Positions 2,881-45,544 of a DNA stretch of 48,997 nt are shown here, piece by piece. The DNA comes from Thermoplasmatota archaeon. GTDB taxonomy: Archaea > Thermoplasmatota > E2 > DHVEG-1. How positions within the stretch are numbered: position 1 is the first letter of the stretch; the number at the start of each line of letters is the position of its first letter. The notes under the pieces were generated by a model, which had not been told where the DNA came from, ran no database searches, and saw only the letters and a list, made by a program, of their open reading frames with translations. A program made the position numbers and the translations under genes. Where the stretch lies: NCBI GenBank assembly GCA_041550515.1, contig JBFEOQ010000001.1:1-48997 (forward strand), in the 5' to 3' direction.

Positions 2881-3056
2881 ATAGAATCCTGCTTTGGTAT
2901 TAACTCGGATAGGTAATCAGTATTTAGTTTTTATCTATACTATGTAATATAAGTAAGATAAAAAAAGAAAATCATTATACGTTTCTTATCATAATATTTA
3001 TTAACAAAATTAAATTATAAGTTTTAAAAAATTTAAGGAGAGAAGAGGAAATAATC

Positions 3057-4262
3057 ATGGATTTAGACTTTCTTAATAAACTTGTTAAAAATGCTGATAC
3101 CAAAATTGTAATGATTATAATAGATGGAATTGGAGGTTTACCTAGAGAAAAGGACAATAAAACTGAGCTTGAATTAGCATATAAACCTAATCTTGATAAA
3201 TTAGCATATAATGGCATTTGTGGTCTTCATATACCAGTCGGACCAGGTATAACCCCAGGTAGTGGTCCAGGTCATCTTGGTATTTTTGGTTTTAATCCAA
3301 AAAAGTATCAAATTGGTAGAGGAGTTCTTGAAGCCTTAGGTATTGATTTCATTTTAGAACCAGGTGATGTTGCAGCTCGAGGGAATTTTTGTACTATTGA
3401 TGAAAAAGGATATATAAGTGATAGAAGAGCAGGGAGAATATCGACAGAAAAAAATCAGCAGCTTTGCAAGATTTTATCTGAACGTATTAATATCCCAATG
3501 GTCAAAGTTTTTATTAAAACTGTAAAAGAACATAGGCTCTTAATTGTTTTAAGAGGAGAAGGTTTAAAAGGAAATCTTATTGATACTGATCCTCAGAAGA
3601 TAGGTATAAAACCTTTAGAGCCAAAAGGGGGAATTGGCTCGGATAAGACAGTTGGAATCGTTGAAAAATTTTTAAACCAAACCAAAGATATTCTATCAGA
3701 TCATCATCCAGCAAACATGGTTTTACTTCGTGGTTTTTCAGAAAAACCTTCTTGGCCAAATTTTCCAAAAGTGTTTGGTTTACATAGTGCTGCAATAGCA
3801 TGTTATCCAATGTATCGTGGTCTAGCAAGTTTAATCGGAATGGATTTACTTAAAACAGGGCAATCTATTGAAGATGAATTTGAAACACTTGAAGAAAACT
3901 GGGATAAATATGATTTTTTCTTTTTACATGTTAAAAAAACTGATAGTTATGGTGAGGATGGAGACTTTGATTCAAAAGTGAATGTGATTGAAAAAGTAGA
4001 TGAGCTTATTCCAAAGCTGATGAATTTGAATCCTGATGTAGTAATTGTCACAGGGGATCATTCTACCCCTTCTGTTTTAAAATCTCATAGTTGGCATCCA
4101 GTTCCATTACTTATTTGGTCAAAGTATTGTCGACCAGATAGTGTAAAAGAATTTGGTGAAAGAGCGTGTATCTCAGGTGGTCTTGGACCTATGCTTTCTG
4201 CAGTTGATATAATGCCGATTGCTTTAGCTAATGCTCTAAGATTTGAAAAGTTTGGAGCATAA
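3057..4262 (+). CDS. apgM: 2,3-bisphosphoglycerate-independent phosphoglycerate mutase (archaeal type)
   Basis: IIDGIGG, TPGSGPGHL, GRGVLEALG, HVKKTDSYGEDGD, TGDHSTP, HSWHPVP motifs; GAGG SD upstream. Confidence 0.92.
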   Translation: MDLDFLNKLVKNADTKIVMIIIDGIGGLPREKDNKTELELAYKPNLDKLAYNGICGLHIPVGPGITPGSGPGHLGIFGFNPKKYQIGRGVLEALGIDFILEPGDVAARGNFCTIDEKGYISDRRAGRISTEKNQQLCKILSERINIPMVKVFIKTVKEHRLLIVLRGEGLKGNLIDTDPQKIGIKPLEPKGGIGSDKTVGIVEKFLNQTKDILSDHHPANMVLLRGFSEKPSWPNFPKVFGLHSAAIACYPMYRGLASLIGMDLLKTGQSIEDEFETLEENWDKYDFFFLHVKKTDSYGEDGDFDSKVNVIEKVDELIPKLMNLNPDVVIVTGDHSTPSVLKSHSWHPVPLLIWSKYCRPDSVKEFGERACISGGLGPMLSAVDIMPIALANALRFEKFGA

Positions 4263-41126: not shown

Positions 41127-42047
41127 TTAATAAGGATATTTTTTACCTATACTCTCAGTAGAAGTTACTGCTGCTGTCGCTCCTTCAGCACAAGCAGTAA
41201 TAACCTGACGAATACCACCAGTAATATCACCAGCTGCATAAACTGCTTTAATATTTGTTCGACCTTCTTTATCAGTTAGAATAAATCCTTTATCATCAAG
41301 TTTAACACCTAGTTTTTTAGCTAGAATATTCTTTGGTTCTTCGCCAATACTAACAAAAACACCATCTATTTGAAGTTCAGAAAGATCATTTGATTTAGTA
41401 TCTTTTAAAGTTAGAGTTTCGACTTTATCTTTTCCATTTATTTTCTCAACTACTTTGTTTAAATGAAAAATAATACCCTTATTTTGTGCTTCATTTTCAT
41501 AGGCTTTCTCTGCACGAAGTTCATTACGACGATGAATAAGATGAACTTGATTACATCCTATCTGTTTCAGATAAATTGCTTCAATAAGAGCAGAGTTCCC
41601 ACCACCTACAACTGCAACATTTTTGTCTTTAAAAAAGAAACCATCACATGTAGCACAATAAGAAACTCCTTTACCAATAAATTTTCTTTCACCAGTAACT
41701 TCTAACTTTTTATAAAAAGTTCCAGTGCAAAGTAAAATCGCAGTAACGTTATATTTATTTTTAATTGTTTTAATCGTAAAAGTATTTTCTTTTTTTATAA
41801 CATCTACTACTTCTTCACCAAATTTAATTTCTGTATATTTACTTGCTTGAGCTTTCATTTTCTCAACGAGATCTAAACCAGAAATAGAATCAAAACCAGG
41901 ATAGTTTTCTATATTTGGAGAAACCGATGCAAGACCCCCACCGAATCCCATATCAAAAACAATTGTTTTAACACCCGCACGCTCTGCATAAATAGCAGCT
42001 GCATAACCTGCCGGACCAGCACCTATTATCCCAAGCTCATATTTCAT
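41127..42047 (-). CDS. trxB: Thioredoxin-disulfide reductase
   Basis: GAGPAG, ENYPG, CATCDG, GGGNSA, HRR, AAGD. ATG 42047 preferred over the track's 42059. Confidence 0.92.
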   Translation of the reverse strand: MKYELGIIGAGPAGYAAAIYAERAGVKTIVFDMGFGGGLASVSPNIENYPGFDSISGLDLVEKMKAQASKYTEIKFGEEVVDVIKKENTFTIKTIKNKYNVTAILLCTGTFYKKLEVTGERKFIGKGVSYCATCDGFFFKDKNVAVVGGGNSALIEAIYLKQIGCNQVHLIHRRNELRAEKAYENEAQNKGIIFHLNKVVEKINGKDKVETLTLKDTKSNDLSELQIDGVFVSIGEEPKNILAKKLGVKLDDKGFILTDKEGRTNIKAVYAAGDITGGIRQVITACAEGATAAVTSTESIGKKYPY

Positions 42048-42161
42048 AACAAATACCAAAAATACCTAATCTATATTTATTTTTTATTTTTCATACCAAA
42101 TACATAAAACTTATTAGTATCTTTATAAAATTTAAATATTCTACAGGTTCTATTAAAATAA

Positions 42162-42854
42162 TTATACACCTCTAGCATTACAATATTCAAATAGCGGTTT
42201 GATTTCTTCAATTATTTCAAAGATATATTTTTTATCATAAGGTTTAACATAGTTTAACTCTTCTGATAAAACGGGCATTTCGTTTTTAAACTGTTGTAGA
42301 TAATATTTTTTTGAACCTTTTAACCATTTTCCAATTTCTAAAATATCTTTTTTTGTTAAAAATTTTGGAACAATAGTTGTTTTAAACTCATAATCAATCT
42401 GAGATTTTTGTAAAATATCGATTGTTTTTTGAATATCTTTAATGTCTATTTTTCCACCTGTTAATTTTGCATATTTATTCTTTGGTGCTTTTATATCAAC
42501 TGCGATATAATCTACCAATTTATTTTCAATTAGTTCATTTAATTTATCTGGAAAAGTTCCATTAGTATCAACCTTTATTAGAATATTAATTTTTTTTATT
42601 TTTTTACAGAATAGATCTAAATCTTTTTGTAAAAAAGGTTCCCCTCCAGATATTACTAATGCTTCAATTATTCCCTTTCTCTTTTTAAGATGAGTAATTA
42701 TCTGCTTTACATCAATACTTTGAGCAGTTTCATGTACTAGTTCTGTATTATAACAGAAGGGACAATTTAAATTACATCCTATTGTCCAAACAATTGAACT
42801 AATCTTATCTGGATAATCAAGTAGTGAAGTTTTTTGAAAACCACCAATTTTCAT
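42162..42854 (-). CDS. nrdG: Anaerobic ribonucleotide reductase activating enzyme (radical SAM)
   Basis: SLLDYP, GCNLNCPFCYN, SGGEP, DTNG; lies in the nrd operon. Confidence 0.92.
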   Translation of the reverse strand: MKIGGFQKTSLLDYPDKISSIVWTIGCNLNCPFCYNTELVHETAQSIDVKQIITHLKKRKGIIEALVISGGEPFLQKDLDLFCKKIKKINILIKVDTNGTFPDKLNELIENKLVDYIAVDIKAPKNKYAKLTGGKIDIKDIQKTIDILQKSQIDYEFKTTIVPKFLTKKDILEIGKWLKGSKKYYLQQFKNEMPVLSEELNYVKPYDKKYIFEIIEEIKPLFEYCNARGV

Positions 42855-42864
42855 ATTTTAGCCA

Positions 42865-43011
42865 TCATTCGGTTTTTTTAACGCTAAATACTTTACGATC
42901 ACTAAATTCTTGTCGTTTTCCTTGATTCCATTGACTAACAGGGCGAAGATAACCAACAACACGTGAATAAACTTCACATTTAGTCCGTTTATTTTCAATT
43001 TCTTTATCCAT
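42865..43011 (-). CDS. Stand-alone glycyl-radical peptide of class III RNR (48 aa)
   Basis: Own translation: MDKEIENKRTKCEVYSRVVGYLRPVSQWNQGKRQEFSDRKVFSVKKTE*, containing the NrdD C-terminal RVxGY...WNxGKxxEFxDR. AGGAGGT SD 8 nt upstream. Not in the ORF track. Confidence 0.9.
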   Translation of the reverse strand: MDKEIENKRTKCEVYSRVVGYLRPVSQWNQGKRQEFSDRKVFSVKKTE

Positions 43012-43017
43012 TTTTAT

Positions 43018-45054
43018 TTACCTCCTAGCAATTATTTTTTTTTTATAACCTATTTCTTCATCACATTTTGGACAATACTCATGTTCCCCAGCAATATATC
43101 CATGTTTAGGACAAATACTAAAAGTAGGTGTAATAGTATAGTAAGGTAAATGATAATTCTCAGCGACTTTTCGAACTAATTTTTTAACAGATTCTGGAGA
43201 TGGTTCTTCTCCGAGGAACAAATGTAGTACTGTACCTCCTGTATATTTCGATTGCAAAGAATCTTGTAAATCAAGTGCTTCAAAAACATCATCTGTAAAA
43301 CCAACAGGCAATTGTGTTGAGTTTGTATAATATGGTTCTACTTTTCGATTTAATCCACCATTGTATTTATCTTGATTATAAACTCTAATATCAGGATATT
43401 GAGCTTTATCAATTTTTGGTAAACGGTAACTTGTTCCTTCACCAGGTGTTGCTTCGAGGTTAAAAATATTACCTGTTTCCTGCTGATAATCAGCCATTTT
43501 ATCACGCATGTGATTTAAAACTTTCTCTGCAAATGCTTTACCTTCTTGGTCACCGATGCTTTTATTCATAAAATTAAGTAAAGCATCATTCATACCGATT
43601 AAACCAATTGTTGAAAAATGATTTTTCCAATATTCTCCTAAGGTTTTTTTAAGATCAGAGAGATAGAAGCGTGTATATGGATGCAATCCACTAAATGTTA
43701 AATTTTCAATTAGCTCTCTTTTAATCTCAAGACTTTCTTTTGCTAAATCCATCATAGTGTCAAGCTTTTCAAAAAAGTCATTATCATCTTTTGAAAGATA
43801 ACTAATCTGTGGCATGTTGATTGTTACAACACCAATGCTACCAGTTTTTGGGTTTGCACCAAATAAACCCCCGCCTCGTTTTTTTAGTTCTCTATTATCC
43901 AATCTTAATCTACAACACATGCTTCTAGCATCATCCGGTTTCATATCACTATTAATAAAATTTGAAAAATAAGGAACTCCATATTTAGCAGTCATTTCCC
44001 ATATTGGATCCAGCCCTTCATTCCCCCAGTCAAAATCCTTTGTAATGTTATATGTTGGAATTGGAAATGTAAAAGGTCTGCCCTTTGCATCTCCTTCGTT
44101 CATAATTTCTGCAAAGGCATGATTCATCATATTCATTTCATCTGTAAAGTCACTATAATTATCATTTTTTAAATCACCACCAATAATGACTGGTTCATCT
44201 AACATATAACTTGGGATTGAAAGATCCAATGTTATATTAGAAAATGGTGATTGAAAACCTACACGAGTAGGAACGTTCATGTTAAATAGGAATTTCTGCA
44301 TTTCTTGTTTTACGTCTTTGTAGTTTAATCCATCATTTCTTATAAAAGGTGCTAGAAGGCTGTCAAAGTTTGATAGCGCTTGTGCACCAGCTGCTTCACC
44401 TTGCAAAGTATATAAATAGTTAACAATTTGCATAAGTGCTGTACTAAAATGTTTCGCAGGTTTGCTTTCGATTTTTCCTGATACTCCTCTAAATCCTAAA
44501 AGTAGGATATCTTTAAGATCCCATCCTACGCAATAAGCTCCTAGTGTACCAAGATCGTGAAGATGGTATGCTCCTTTTGTGTGAGCTTCCCCAATTTCTG
44601 GAGGATAAATCTTGTTTAGCCAATAATGACTTATGATATTTTCTGTAGCATAAACATTAAGTCCTTGTAAAGAATAAGCCATATTACTGTTTTCTTGAAC
44701 TTTCCAATCCATCATGCTTAAGTAATCATCAACGACATCTATGTCTTTAAGTAAACCTCCAATTTCTCTCATATCTTGATGCTGTTTTCTATATAAGATG
44801 TAAGCTTTTCCTGTTCTTGCATGCCCTTCTTCAATTAGTGTTTTTTCGACAATGTCTTGAACTAGTTCAACTGTTGGTATTTCACCTTTTTTAAGTTCAT
44901 TTTCAATTCTTTTCATTACATTGTCAGTTAGTTCTATTGATTTTTTGTAATCTTTACCGCCAACTGCTTGTGCTGCTTTCCAGATTGCGTTTGTAATTTT
45001 TAAAGGATTAAAATCTACTATTTTTCCGTCTCTTTTCCTTATTTTTCTTATCAT
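43018..45054 (-). CDS. nrdD: Class III ribonucleoside-triphosphate reductase catalytic subunit lacking the glycyl-radical tail
   Basis: N-terminal ATP cone, HLHDL, AYC, FTFPIPTY, RSMCCRL, LEATPGE, YTGGT, CPKH...CPKC, then ends at IIARR* with no RVxGY. Confidence 0.95.
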   Translation of the reverse strand: MIRKIRKRDGKIVDFNPLKITNAIWKAAQAVGGKDYKKSIELTDNVMKRIENELKKGEIPTVELVQDIVEKTLIEEGHARTGKAYILYRKQHQDMREIGGLLKDIDVVDDYLSMMDWKVQENSNMAYSLQGLNVYATENIISHYWLNKIYPPEIGEAHTKGAYHLHDLGTLGAYCVGWDLKDILLLGFRGVSGKIESKPAKHFSTALMQIVNYLYTLQGEAAGAQALSNFDSLLAPFIRNDGLNYKDVKQEMQKFLFNMNVPTRVGFQSPFSNITLDLSIPSYMLDEPVIIGGDLKNDNYSDFTDEMNMMNHAFAEIMNEGDAKGRPFTFPIPTYNITKDFDWGNEGLDPIWEMTAKYGVPYFSNFINSDMKPDDARSMCCRLRLDNRELKKRGGGLFGANPKTGSIGVVTINMPQISYLSKDDNDFFEKLDTMMDLAKESLEIKRELIENLTFSGLHPYTRFYLSDLKKTLGEYWKNHFSTIGLIGMNDALLNFMNKSIGDQEGKAFAEKVLNHMRDKMADYQQETGNIFNLEATPGEGTSYRLPKIDKAQYPDIRVYNQDKYNGGLNRKVEPYYTNSTQLPVGFTDDVFEALDLQDSLQSKYTGGTVLHLFLGEEPSPESVKKLVRKVAENYHLPYYTITPTFSICPKHGYIAGEHEYCPKCDEEIGYKKKIIARR

Positions 45055-45072: not shown

Positions 45073-45519
45073 TTATTTTGTTAAATTTTTAATCTCTTTT
45101 TCAAAGGAGGAAACATCAGTAAATCTTCGGTAGACTGATGCAAATCTTATATATGCAACATGGTCAAGTTTTTTTAGATTATCCATTACATACTCTCCTA
45201 TATCTTTACTACTAATTTCTTCTGATGCATTTCTCCTGATTTTTTCTTCTATTTTATCAACTATCTCTTCTACTTTTTCGTAATTAACTGGTCTTTTTTC
45301 AATGGCTTTTTGTATACCATTTTTAATTTTATTTTTATCAAATTTTTCTCTACGTCCATCTTTTTTAATAACATATAAAGGATGCATTTCAATATACTCG
45401 TAGGTTGTGAATCTTTTACCACAATCTAGACATTCACGACGACGTCTGATTGTAAATACTCCTGTATCTCGAGAATCAGTAACTTTAGTCTCAATATGGC
45501 TACAATAGGGACACTTCAT
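45073..45519 (-). CDS. nrdR: Transcriptional repressor NrdR
   Basis: [30 protein letters not shown] cone, [11 protein letters not shown]; GGAG SD. Confidence 0.96.
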
Positions 45520-45544
45520 TTTATACTCTCCCAACAATAATCAT

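What the first reader, a model, noticed from the sequence alone, without database searches (positions are those of the whole stretch)
42865..45054. Split class III RNR: the glycyl radical is carried on a separate 48-aa peptide
Seen: NrdD stops just after its C-terminal Zn site (CPKH...CPKC...IIARR*) without the RVxGY motif. The next ORF on the same strand, which is below the ORF-track cut-off, encodes that motif (CEVYSRVVGYLRPVSQWNQGKRQEFSDRK) and is followed by nrdG. The last nrdD codons plus the stop form a perfect AGGAGGT SD 8 nt before its ATG. Established: the Gly of RVxGY is the radical site installed by NrdG and is normally in cis; GrcA/YfiD is an autonomous glycyl-radical spare part for pyruvate formate-lyase. 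Inference: this is a two-chain RNR with an obligate, exchangeable radical peptide, which could make O2 cleavage cheap to repair. I recall similar short NrdD-like ORFs in other genomes but know of no characterisation. Caveat: the small ORF is in frame with nrdD (TAA ATA AAA ATG), so a nonsense mutation or sequencing error must be excluded.
Basis: partly seen in the sequence, partly recalled or inferred. Interest (0 to 1): 0.85.

Follow-up and report, generated by a model that had tools for sequence, protein, structure and literature searches.

The report
Two-gene anaerobic RNR with detached radical peptide
This archaeon makes its anaerobic ribonucleotide reductase from two genes, with the radical-carrying glycine on a separate 48-residue peptide, an arrangement that recurs in many microbes and phages but seems not to have been described.

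Summary
nrdD (45054..43018, minus strand, 678 aa) stops after its zinc ribbon. A 48-aa ORF (43011..42865) carries the RVVGY glycyl-radical loop, and nrdG follows.

It is not an error or a pseudogene:
- 17 related archaeal genomes in 13 genera have the same split; 10 of 17 are out of frame with nrdD, and all three stop codons occur.
- GGAGG lies before the peptide start in 14 of 17.
- The peptide is under strong purifying selection (median dN/dS 0.08).
- Independent assemblies keep the TAA.
- No other ribonucleotide reductase (RNR) was found in the genome (88.6% complete).
- A co-fold places the peptide against the zinc ribbon. This pass is expected for the halves of a split gene.

The split also occurs in other phyla: Micrarchaeota, Woesearchaeota, candidate phyla radiation (CPR) bacteria and Bipolaricaulota. 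Full-length NrdD with an extra stand-alone radical domain also exists. 67 of the 80 best viral contigs encode only the peptide.

"Two-chain enzyme" is well supported. "Exchangeable spare part" remains an inference, though the extra copies fit it. Reviews from 2021 and 2026 state that spare-part proteins are known only for pyruvate formate-lyase (PFL). I rate it a new variant of a known kind, of high interest.

The parts
45073..45537 (-). nrdR (154 aa), transcriptional regulator with a zinc ribbon and an ATP-cone, immediately upstream of nrdD
   Evidence: TIGR00244 at E 1e-56, 191.1 bits against a cut-off of 124.65; Pfam Zn_ribbon_NrdR and ATP-cone
43018..45054 (-). nrdD large chain (678 aa plus TAA): ATP-cone, catalytic barrel and zinc ribbon, with no glycyl-radical loop
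   Evidence: NF006126 positions 2-654 of 684, 1018.6 bits (cut-off 548); PF13597 positions 1-532 of 562; PF03477 at aa 4-93
44776..45045 (-). ATP-cone (aa 4-93 of NrdD)
   Evidence: PF03477 at E 1.4e-21
43063..43113 (-). zinc-ribbon ligand codons C648, H651, C661 and C664 (CPKH...CPKC), all in the large chain
   Evidence: All four are invariant in alignment A1. The same motif in a fused relative (L003) aligns to the C..H...CxxC of T. maritima NrdD (4coi) and the CxxC...CxxC of 8p23
43020..43026 (-). Shine-Dalgarno sequence AGGAGGT, formed by the last two Arg codons of nrdD plus the T of its stop, 8 nt before the peptide ATG
   Evidence: Sequence. GGAGG lies 6-13 nt before the peptide start in 14 of 17 split relatives. 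A strict SD-like motif precedes 7 of 39 long ORFs in the window, against a 1.8% background
43018..43020 (-). nrdD stop codon TAA
   Evidence: No difference is listed at these bases in contigs of runs X8, X13 and X16
42865..43011 (-). 48-aa glycyl-radical peptide ORF (plus TGA), equivalent to the C-terminal glycyl loop and helix of fused NrdD
   Evidence: PF13597 positions 531-562 at E 2e-11; NF006126 positions 649-683. 20 invariant positions in 35 sequences. Median dN/dS 0.076
42952..42954 (-). codon of Gly20, the predicted radical site in RVVGY
   Evidence: Invariant G20 in alignment A2. The glycine of the same RVVGY motif in a fused relative (L003) aligns to the glycine of the RI(V/T)GY motif in the solved NrdDs 4coi and 8p23
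42162..42854 (-). nrdG activase (230 aa, radical SAM), starting 10 nt after the peptide ORF
   Evidence: TIGR02495 NrdG2 at 216.9 bits (cut-off 131.15); PF04055
41127..42059 (-). thioredoxin-reductase-like flavoprotein (310 aa) downstream on the same strand; a possible reductant system, membership of the operon not shown
   Evidence: PF07992 Pyr_redox_2 at E 4.7e-55

Best explanation
The window encodes a functional two-chain class III (anaerobic) ribonucleotide reductase.

The 678-aa NrdD chain supplies the ATP-cone, the catalytic barrel with its finger-loop cysteines, and the complete zinc ribbon. The 48-aa peptide is translated separately, from its own ATG. A strong SD embedded in the last nrdD codons precedes it, so translation is probably coupled.

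The peptide supplies the glycyl-radical loop (RVVGY, Gly20) and the C-terminal helix. It docks by adding a strand (C12-Y15) onto the zinc-ribbon sheet (residues 645-648) and inserts the Gly loop into the barrel. NrdG, encoded next, abstracts the Gly20 hydrogen.

Shown here: the gene structure, its conservation, purifying selection, the absence of any other RNR found, and a modelled interface.

Inferred: separate translation, activation by NrdG, and catalysis. Also inferred, less firmly (about 0.45): because O2 cleaves the backbone at the radical glycine, only the small peptide is lost and can be replaced. This would work like GrcA/YfiD for pyruvate formate-lyase.
For: 1. Clean division of the NrdD profiles between the two ORFs.

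2. 17 genomes of the same family, in 13 genera, have the same junction.
   - The peptide frame relative to nrdD is 0 in 7, +1 in 6 and +2 in 4.
   - The stop is TAA in 14, TGA in 2 and TAG in 1.
   - The spacing is -14 to +8 nt.

3. GGAGG lies 6-13 nt before the start in 14 of 17.

4. For the peptide core, median dN/dS is 0.076 over the 48 of 91 pairs with unsaturated dS. 20 of 48 positions are invariant in 35 sequences.

5. Contigs of runs from three studies (X8, X13, X16) list no difference at the TAA. X13 may be the source of this DNA. The X16 contig has a 1-nt deletion in the A-run at 43035. That would end nrdD five codons earlier and put the peptide out of frame, while an SD-like GGGAGG is kept.

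6. In G000 (88.6% complete) there is only one NrdD locus, and no class I or II catalytic domain (PF02867) was found.

7. Co-fold: ipSAE 0.86, best of 3 controls 0.00. The mark was reached by 58 of 80 solved complexes and 2 of 110 mismatched pairs. The runs agree in at least 85% of contacts and the partner's pLDDT is at least 77.

8. The same split is found next to nrdD in 16 of the 80 best genome-collection loci from other lineages.

9. For the exchange idea:
   - A full-length nrdD is followed by a 92-94 aa zinc-ribbon plus glycyl-loop ORF in 3 CPR genomes.
   - Unlinked 72-73 aa copies occur in two Thermoplasmatales genomes that also have fused nrdD.
   - 67 of the 80 best viral loci have the peptide with no NrdD body in about 4 kb of flank.
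   - In 5 of 5 whole viral records searched, the peptide is the only NRDD match.
Against: - There is no protein or RNA evidence for the peptide.
- The co-fold pass is expected for the halves of a split gene whose fused relatives are solved (4coi, 8p23, 1h78). It may come from the model's memory. The job also used my own alignments and carried a zinc ion, unlike the calibration.
- In the window itself the two ORFs are in frame, so read-through cannot be excluded for this one genome from sequence alone.
- Split and fused forms are interleaved on the NrdD tree. Spacing is 0-8 nt in most and overlapping in one, which suggests 1:1 co-translation. Both fit a neutral fission with a constitutively bound peptide better than a turnover system.
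- Contigs show presence, not the absence of minor variants.
- The genome is incomplete, so another RNR could be missed.
Confidence: 0.8

Rival explanations
1. Near-neutral gene fission. The two chains assemble once, stay together and behave exactly like fused NrdD. The split was fixed without any repair or exchange benefit.
For: - Split and fused forms are interleaved on the NrdD body tree: 8 changes among 32 rows, and monophyly of the split rows is rejected (AU p 0.0009).
- On the wider tree there are 14 changes, at least 5 of them forced by starred branches.
- One genus (g36) holds both states.
- Spacing is -14 to +8 nt, with the SD inside nrdD, which implies coupled expression near 1:1.
- G000 has a single peptide copy.
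Against: - The peptide also occurs as an extra copy beside full-length nrdD, unlinked in genomes with fused nrdD, and alone on phage contigs. That is hard to explain unless it can act in trans on a resident enzyme.
- The split recurs in several phyla.
Confidence: 0.35
2. A sequencing or assembly error, or a recent nonsense mutation. The real gene would be a fused nrdD, or a pseudogene.
For: In this window the small ORF is in frame with nrdD and separated from it only by TAA ATA AAA.
Against: - 17 genomes share the split, 10 of them out of frame, with three different stop codons.
- Split forms share a tail and a leader of about 25 extra residues that fused relatives lack.
- The peptide is under purifying selection.
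- Contigs of other runs keep the TAA.
- This is the sole RNR found.
Confidence: 0.02
3. Programmed stop-codon read-through or recoding yields a single fused polypeptide; the small ORF is not translated on its own.
For: The in-frame arrangement in G000, G001 and five other genomes.
Against: - 10 of 17 relatives are in frame +1 or +2 with varied spacing, so no single recoding mechanism fits.
- An ATG preceded by GGAGG is conserved in 14 of 17.
- A near-identical strain contig (X16) has a 1-nt deletion that breaks the frame relation but keeps the SD.
- The stop codons differ among relatives, so this is not a reassigned codon.
Confidence: 0.03
4. A remnant of a mobile insertion (intron, intein, split intein or homing endonuclease), with the halves rejoined at the RNA or protein level.
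For: - nrdD of relatives is rich in inteins (open frames up to 2639 aa; Intein_splicing and LAGLIDADG domains in L040).
- Phage nrdD genes fragmented by introns and endonucleases are in print (PMC12880540, passages).
Against: - The spacer is 6 nt here and -14 to +8 nt in the 17 relatives: there is no room for an intron.
- The extra residues (10-16 in the tail, about 11 in the leader) are far too few for a split intein, and I saw no intein end motifs (motifs recalled, not from a call).
- None of the profile breaks attributable to inteins lies near position 650.
Confidence: 0.01

Closest known systems
Canonical single-chain class III RNR NrdD with activase NrdG (phage T4 1h78 and related entries, T. 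maritima 4coi/4u3e, Prevotella copri 8p23)
   Same: Same family and domain order: ATP-cone, barrel, zinc ribbon, glycyl loop RVxGY, with an adjacent radical-SAM activase.
   Different: The chain is cut between the last zinc ligand and the glycyl loop, so the radical glycine sits on a separate 48-aa polypeptide. Split forms carry about 25 extra residues (a tail and a leader) at the cut.
GrcA/YfiD of E. coli and Y06I of phage T4, autonomous glycyl-radical 'spare parts' for pyruvate formate-lyase
   Same: A small free-standing protein that carries the glycyl-radical loop of a large glycyl radical enzyme. As with Y06I, phage-encoded versions exist.
   Different: It is not homologous to the PFL-type Gly_radical domain: Pfam gives only NRDD. 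Here the large chain has no glycyl loop of its own, so the peptide is obligate rather than a back-up. No rescue has been demonstrated. Reviews state that spare parts are known or validated only for PFL (PMC8683613 passages; PMC13450708 passages).
Split class II RNR NrdJa/NrdJb of Pseudomonas aeruginosa
   Same: An RNR catalytic chain encoded as two adjacent genes that assemble. I know it only as cited in passages of PMC9669993.
   Different: A different RNR class and a different cut site. [quoted passage not shown]
Fragmented nrdD of gut 'Jug' jumbo phages
   Same: nrdD occurs in pieces. The paper reports a C-terminal 91-aa fragment for which no splicing evidence was seen (PMC12880540, passages only).
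   Different: There the fragmentation is by group I introns, inteins and endonuclease genes. Here the spacer is 6 nt with an SD and an ATG. In the passages I read, that paper does not treat the last fragment as an autonomous radical subunit.

Membership tests
Class III RNR catalytic subunit NrdD (NCBIfam NF006126 / Pfam PF13597) | Whole-protein profile match above the curated cut-off | tested here: met
   Large chain: NF006126 at 1018.6 bits (cut-off 548); PF13597 at 592.9 bits
Class III RNR catalytic subunit NrdD (NCBIfam NF006126 / Pfam PF13597) | C-terminal zinc ribbon (Cys/His x4) | tested here: met
   C648, H651, C661 and C664 are invariant in A1. In the fused relative L003 the same motif aligns to the C..H..CxxC of 4coi and the CxxC..CxxC of 8p23. 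Metal binding itself was not tested.
Class III RNR catalytic subunit NrdD (NCBIfam NF006126 / Pfam PF13597) | Conserved finger-loop cysteine(s) in the barrel | tested here: met
   M379-C380-C381-R382-L383-R384 are invariant in A1. In the fused relative L003 the same motif aligns to the cysteine-bearing stretch of 8p23 and 4coi. The catalytic role is recalled, not tested.
Class III RNR catalytic subunit NrdD (NCBIfam NF006126 / Pfam PF13597) | Glycyl-radical motif RVxGY at the C-terminus of the same polypeptide | tested here: not met
   The large chain ends at profile position 654 of 684 with no such motif. The motif lies in the next ORF, at profile positions 649-683.
Class III RNR catalytic subunit NrdD (NCBIfam NF006126 / Pfam PF13597) | Adjacent cognate activase NrdG | tested here: met
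   TIGR02495 NrdG2 at 216.9 bits (cut-off 131.15), starting 10 nt downstream of the peptide ORF
GrcA/YfiD autonomous glycyl-radical cofactors (PFL-type Gly_radical domain) | Sequence membership in the PFL-type glycyl-radical domain family | tested here: not met
   A Pfam scan of the peptide at E <= 0.01 returns only PF13597 NRDD. NCBIfam returns only NrdD models.
GrcA/YfiD autonomous glycyl-radical cofactors (PFL-type Gly_radical domain) | A small free-standing protein that carries the radical glycine | tested here: met
   A 48-aa ORF with its own SD and ATG, conserved as a separate ORF in 17 related genomes
GrcA/YfiD autonomous glycyl-radical cofactors (PFL-type Gly_radical domain) | Restores activity to the O2-cleaved large enzyme after activation by the activase | not testable with these tools
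   This needs anaerobic biochemistry.
Split class II RNR (NrdJa/NrdJb) | Class I/II catalytic barrel (PF02867) divided between two genes | tested here: not met
   No PF02867 match in G000 (88.6% complete)

The most novel reading that the evidence does not exclude
NrdD-type glycyl-radical peptides would be a large, unrecognised family of autonomous radical cofactors for ribonucleotide reduction. They would act in three ways:
- as an obligate small subunit in split enzymes, as in this window;
- as a spare part encoded beside or apart from full-length NrdD;
- as a minimal phage auxiliary gene of 40-130 aa that re-arms host NrdD after oxygen cleavage, or supplements it, using the host's NrdG to keep dNTP synthesis running during infection.

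Exchange of a cheap peptide, rather than resynthesis of an 80-kDa enzyme, would be the selective advantage.
Probability: 0.45. Interest if true: 0.9.

Novelty: new variant of a known kind. Interest (0 to 1): 0.8.

Why it matters
Glycyl radical enzymes are destroyed by oxygen through backbone cleavage at the radical glycine. The only known remedy is the GrcA/YfiD spare part of pyruvate formate-lyase. Reviews from 2021 and 2026 say that no other class of glycyl radical enzyme has one, while speculating that such proteins might exist.

A class III RNR whose radical site is always supplied in trans would be a natural system for several open questions:
- how the glycyl domain leaves the barrel to meet its activase;
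- whether a radical-bearing peptide can be exchanged;
- how strict anaerobes with a single RNR survive oxygen pulses.

Peptide-only copies are widespread on phage contigs. This points to a very small auxiliary gene that could control the host's dNTP supply. Such genes are invisible to surveys that discard short sequences: the eLife 2022 RNR survey removed everything under 400 residues.

It also matters for annotation. These peptides carry no name, or the name of the full enzyme, and the truncated NrdD can be mistaken for a pseudogene.

Tried and rejected
Split intein or trans-splicing: rejected. The extra residues at the cut (10-16 plus about 11) are too few, and I saw no intein end motifs (motifs recalled).

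Intron: rejected. The spacer is 6 nt.

Altered genetic code: rejected. TAA, TGA and TAG all occur as the nrdD stop among split relatives.

The 'EEIGY' in the nrdD tail as a decayed glycyl loop: rejected.
- Fused relatives have a homologous 'KIGN' linker at the same place.
- Tails in other phyla lack the motif.
- The apparently invariant G669 in A1 is an alignment artefact of mixing split and fused rows.

Cys12 of the peptide as a zinc ligand: left open.
- It is invariant in A2, and the model puts it next to C648, C661 and C664.
- T. maritima and P. copri NrdD have no cysteine there.
- No coordinates were available to measure distances.

Single origin of the split: not supported on the NrdD body tree. 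I cannot tell repeated fission and fusion from recombination of the 3' end.

My automatic 'split-adjacent' class held 5 doubtful rows: L063, L072, L134, L135 and L207. On inspection these are longer C-terminal fragments or lack a long ORF ending nearby. I left them out of the count of 16.

L097, L099 and L122 (frames of 140-206 aa with no NrdD nearby) were not examined.

RNA run X19 gave one 263-nt contig over 43025-43287 only. It does not cover the peptide ORF, so it says nothing about its expression.

Runs X19-X24 hold small or no shares of the sequence. They are not evidence for anything here.

PHROGs has no family for the peptide. The only hits are to the C-terminus of phrog_487 (NrdD) and a weak one to phrog_4132, of unknown function.

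The neighbours of the unlinked 45-aa copy in L033 gave no informative PHROG hit apart from a methyltransferase, so whether that region is viral is unknown.

A tblastn of the peptide against 50,697 deposited phage records found only 3 records. With a 48-aa query this is a weak search.

Supplementary files of papers were not opened. The supplements of PMC12880540 (tables of nrdD fragments) might bear on how its 91-aa fragment compares.
Full report
OBSERVATION. The minus strand of the window carries four consecutive genes.
- nrdR: 45537..45073.
- nrdD: 45054..43018, 678 aa.
- A 48-aa ORF: 43011..42865.
- nrdG: 42854..42162.

The nrdD product ends ...CPKHGYIAGEHEYCPKCDEEIGYKKKIIARR, followed by TAA. 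Its last codons and the stop spell AGGAGGT, 8 nt before the small ORF's ATG. The junction TAA ATA AAA ATG is in frame. The small ORF reads MDKEIENKRTKCEVYSRVVGYLRPVSQWNQGKRQEFSDRKVFSVKKTE.

Profiles divide cleanly between the two ORFs.
- NF006126 (684 positions): 2-654 in the large chain (1018.6 bits, cut-off 548) and 649-683 in the small ORF.
- Pfam NRDD: 1-532 of 562 in the large chain and 531-562 in the small ORF (E 2e-11).
- NrdG matches TIGR02495 (216.9 bits, cut-off 131.15).
- NrdR matches TIGR00244.

IS IT AN ERROR? No.

A read-through family search of 41 genomes (G000 and 40 relatives) found NrdD in 34 of them. There were three kinds of result: uninterrupted frames, frames with one internal stop, and separate matches to positions 648-683 in another frame.

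A peptide search of 401 genomes of the phylum gave 70 with a match. 47 of these are in the window's own family, counting G000. Of those 47:
- 13 have the match in a frame of 48-102 aa next to nrdD;
- 32 have it in frames of 715 aa or more;
- 2 lie at contig ends.

With four more genomes, I inspected 17 split junctions, in 13 genera.
- Frame of the peptide ORF relative to nrdD: 0 in 7, +1 in 6, +2 in 4.
- Stop codon of nrdD: TAA in 14, TGA in 2, TAG in 1.
- Spacing: -14 to +8 nt.

All split forms share extra sequence that the fused relatives lack. The tail after CPxC is either ...EEIGY(N)KK..(A)RR or ...EIGYKGGN. The leader is M-x-K-x-(I/L)-E-x-KRT-x before CEVYSRVVGY. Fused relatives read CPxC-K..NKTTE-CEVYSRVVGY.

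GGAGG lies 6-13 nt before the peptide start in 14 of 17. The other three have purine-rich variants. Both kinds of tail (...ARR stop and ...KGGN stop) encode this motif. In the window, a strict SD-like motif precedes 7 of 39 long ORFs, against 1.8% of random 17-mers.

The peptide core has a median dN/dS of 0.076 in the 48 of 91 pairs whose dS is not saturated. 20 of 48 positions are invariant across 35 sequences.

READS. 18 run rows hold at least half of the sampled words of 42500-43600. I laid contigs of X8, X13 and X16 (three studies) and of one RNA run.
- None of the three DNA runs lists a difference at 43018-43020.
- X13 is flagged as a possible source of this DNA, so independent support comes from X8 and X16.
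- The X16 contig (depth 6.5) differs at 43026 and 43029 and lacks one base of the A-run at 43035.

Read by hand, the X16 deletion would end nrdD at ...GYKKK and shift the peptide ORF out of frame. GGGAGG would remain before the ATG. This is a single contig in a homopolymer, so I treat it as a hint. Contigs show presence, not the absence of minor variants.

WHAT THE PIECES ARE. I compared a fused relative (L003, 714 aa) with solved structures. The best matches are the NrdDs 8p23 (P. copri), 4coi/4u3e (T. maritima), 9d3x and phage T4 1h78.

In those alignments the CP.H ... CP.C of this clade lines up with the C..H ... CxxC of T. maritima and the CxxC ... CxxC of P. copri. The RVVGY lines up with their RI(V/T)GY.

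All four presumed zinc ligands (C648, H651, C661, C664; invariant in A1) are therefore in the large chain. The cut falls between the zinc ribbon and the glycyl loop. That the glycine of this motif is the radical site, and that O2 cleaves the chain there, is established knowledge of the family. I recall it, and passages of PMC8683613 and PMC13450708 are consistent with it.

CO-FOLD. Large chain (alignment A1), peptide (A2) and a zinc ion: ipSAE 0.86, best of 3 controls 0.00.
- The mark was reached by 58 of 80 solved complexes and 2 of 110 mismatched pairs.
- The runs agree in at least 85% of contacts, and the partner's pLDDT is at least 77.
- The best-defined contacts pair peptide residues 12-15 (CEVY) with large-chain residues 645-648.
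- They also put Cys12 beside C648, C661 and C664.

These are the halves of a split gene with solved fused relatives, so the pass may come from memory. It shows likeness, not binding. The job also used my own alignments and carried a riding zinc ion, unlike the calibration.

CONTEXT. G000 is archaeal: its 16S fragment fits the archaeal SSU model best. Relatives of its family carry NCBI titles such as 'Thermoplasmatales archaeon'. The window has 29.4% G+C.

G000 (88.6% complete) has one NrdD locus and no match to the class I/II catalytic domain PF02867. As far as the assembly shows, this split enzyme is the only RNR. A thioredoxin-reductase-like gene lies downstream on the same strand.

HOW WIDE IS IT? 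Several searches agree that the form is common.
- 842 clusters (at 90% identity) of proteins of 26-84 aa match the peptide. Some carry automatic names of the full enzyme, or 'hypothetical protein'.
- A profile search of 1.84 billion cluster representatives gave 4,919 hits at E <= 1e-3 and 2,266 at E <= 1e-10.
- The best 150 of these are all 42-192 aa long. 149 of the 150 lack an NrdD-type CxxH...CxxC before the loop, so they are not C-terminal fragments of fused genes. 142 of the 150 start with M.
- This ranking favours sequences like the query's leader, so it does not give the share of split forms.

The 80 best loci from 185,579 species genomes were classified and inspected.
- 52 are fused.
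- 16 are truly split with an adjacent nrdD. The lineages are Micrarchaeota, Woesearchaeota/Nanobdellota, Saccharibacteria and other Patescibacteria, Falkowbacteria, Bipolaricaulota/Acetothermia, one Gammaproteobacteria-labelled genome assembled from a metagenome, and G335 again.
- 4 are doubtful.
- 4 have no NrdD in the flank.
- 1 has nrdD elsewhere in the locus.
- 3 are undetermined.

Three of the 'fused' loci (L075, L077, L090; Minisyncoccales/Paceibacterota) have a full-length nrdD with its own loop. It is followed 1-17 nt later by a 92-94 aa ORF made of a zinc ribbon plus a second glycyl loop.

In the window's own family, G153 and G217 have fused nrdD plus an unlinked 72-73 aa protein made of a zinc ribbon and a glycyl loop. 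G011 and G335 have further unlinked copies of 42-104 aa.

VIRUSES. The 80 best IMG/VR loci divide as follows.
- 67 carry the loop in a frame of 39-264 aa with no NrdD body in about 4 kb of flank (tblastn E <= 1e-3).
- 8 are fused.
- 1 is doubtful.
- 4 are undetermined.

Further points on the viral loci:
- An NrdG-like gene is present in 3 of the 80 viral loci, against 74 of the 80 genome loci.
- Neighbouring genes in four of these loci include terminase, portal, head and tail-spike proteins.
- In 5 of 5 whole viral records searched (CheckV completeness 58-100%), the only NRDD match is the peptide itself, at model positions 530/531-562 in frames of 46-77 aa.
- The deposited archaeal virus ANMV-1 has a 144-aa CDS of the zinc-ribbon plus loop kind, annotated as the full enzyme.

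EVOLUTION. On a tree of the NrdD body, with the tail columns removed, split rows do not form one clade. Among 32 rows there are 8 changes (6-9 across bootstrap trees), and the AU test rejects monophyly (p 0.0009). On 84 rows from several phyla there are 14 changes, at least 5 of them forced by starred branches. One genus (g36) contains both states.

The split forms within the family share a homologous tail and leader. Recombination of the 3' module, or repeated loss of the small insert, is therefore as likely as repeated fission. I could not tell these apart.

MECHANISM.
- Shown: two ORFs, conserved as two, selected as protein, with a ribosome-binding site; the sole RNR found; and a modelled interface at the zinc ribbon.
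- Inferred from family knowledge: the peptide docks and places Gly20 in the barrel, NrdG makes the radical, and the thiyl radical on the finger loop starts catalysis.
- Inferred more weakly (about 0.45): the detached peptide is replaceable after O2 cleavage. The extra and phage-borne copies suggest that it can work in trans on a resident NrdD.
- Against the last point: coupled translation, a single copy in G000, and frequent split/fused switching all fit a near-neutral fission.

LITERATURE. None of the nine full-text searches listed a paper on a two-chain class III RNR or on a spare part for NrdD. I read passages of seven of the listed papers.
- PMC8683613 (2021, passages): only YfiD and Y06I are validated, and spare parts for other glycyl radical enzymes are possible.
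- PMC9669993 (passages): describes the split class II NrdJa/NrdJb, but no split class III enzyme.
- PMC9531940 (passages): removed sequences under 400 residues, which would hide these peptides.
- PMC12880540 (passages): reports phage nrdD fragmented by introns and endonucleases, including a 91-aa fragment without splicing evidence. This is the closest item in print.

Subscription journals and supplementary files were not searchable.

VERDICT. The two-chain reading is well supported. The exchangeable-cofactor reading is plausible but unproven. This is a new variant of a known kind (class III RNR, with GrcA as the functional analogue). It is widespread, and it can be tested directly.

Noticed in passing
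L137-L216 (IMG/VR loci), e.g. L141 4001-4108, L152, L160, L165: 67 of the 80 best viral loci encode the NrdD-type glycyl loop as a small stand-alone ORF, with no NrdD body in the flanks and almost never an nrdG. In 5 of 5 whole records the peptide is the only NRDD match. Phage hallmark genes lie nearby.
   Followed up: partly
L075, L077, L090 (match at 3001-3108 of each): CPR bacteria (Minisyncoccales/Paceibacterota) have a full-length nrdD followed 1-17 nt later by a 92-94 aa ORF made of a zinc ribbon plus a second glycyl loop. This looks like an adjacent spare radical domain.
   Followed up: partly
L050 971-1192 (-), L051 2852-3070 (-): Two genomes of the window's family with fused nrdD also carry an unlinked 72-73 aa protein (CxxC...CxxC ribbon plus CEVYSRVVGY loop), among ordinary cellular genes.
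   Followed up: partly
L033 3005-3142 (-); L048; L049: Further unlinked copies of 45, 42 and 104 aa occur in G011 and G335. The L033 copy sits among small unannotated ORFs. PHROGs gave only a methyltransferase hit, so whether the region is viral is unknown.
   Followed up: partly
L040 44-4333; also rows for G007, G011-G013, G015-G017, G021, G038: nrdD of relatives is heavily invaded by inteins, with open frames of 1045-2639 aa. L040's 1429-aa product has Intein_splicing and LAGLIDADG domains. None of the insertion sites lies at the split point.
   Followed up: partly
window 43026, 43029, 43035: A near-identical strain contig (run X16) has two substitutions and a 1-nt deletion in the A10 run. 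These would shorten the nrdD tail by five codons and change the frame relation to the peptide, while keeping a GGGAGG before the ATG.
   Followed up: partly
window 45073-45537 (-): A bacterial-type NrdR repressor lies directly upstream of nrdD in an archaeal genome. Relatives have it too (ATP-cone matches upstream of nrdD). NrdR boxes were not looked for.
   Followed up: no
window 41127-42059 (-) and NrdD C380-C381: A thioredoxin-reductase-like flavoprotein lies downstream of nrdG, and NrdD has an invariant Cys-Cys in the finger-loop region. This suggests a thiol-dependent rather than a formate-dependent NrdD subtype. The subtype scheme is recalled, not tested.
   Followed up: no
P0121, P0165, P0177, P0182: Among the small representatives, one 66-aa protein has the glycyl loop duplicated in tandem. 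A few have the GY changed (VVEY, VVGF), so they are possible non-radical variants or errors.
   Followed up: no
L097, L099, L122: Genomes labelled Desulfobacterales/Thermodesulfobacteriota have the loop in frames of 140-206 aa with no NrdD similarity in 3 kb of flank. The architecture was not examined.
   Followed up: no
L217 3710-4144 (+): The deposited archaeal virus ANMV-1 (KP703175) encodes a 144-aa protein made of a zinc ribbon and a glycyl loop. It is annotated 'anaerobic ribonucleoside triphosphate reductase'.
   Followed up: partly
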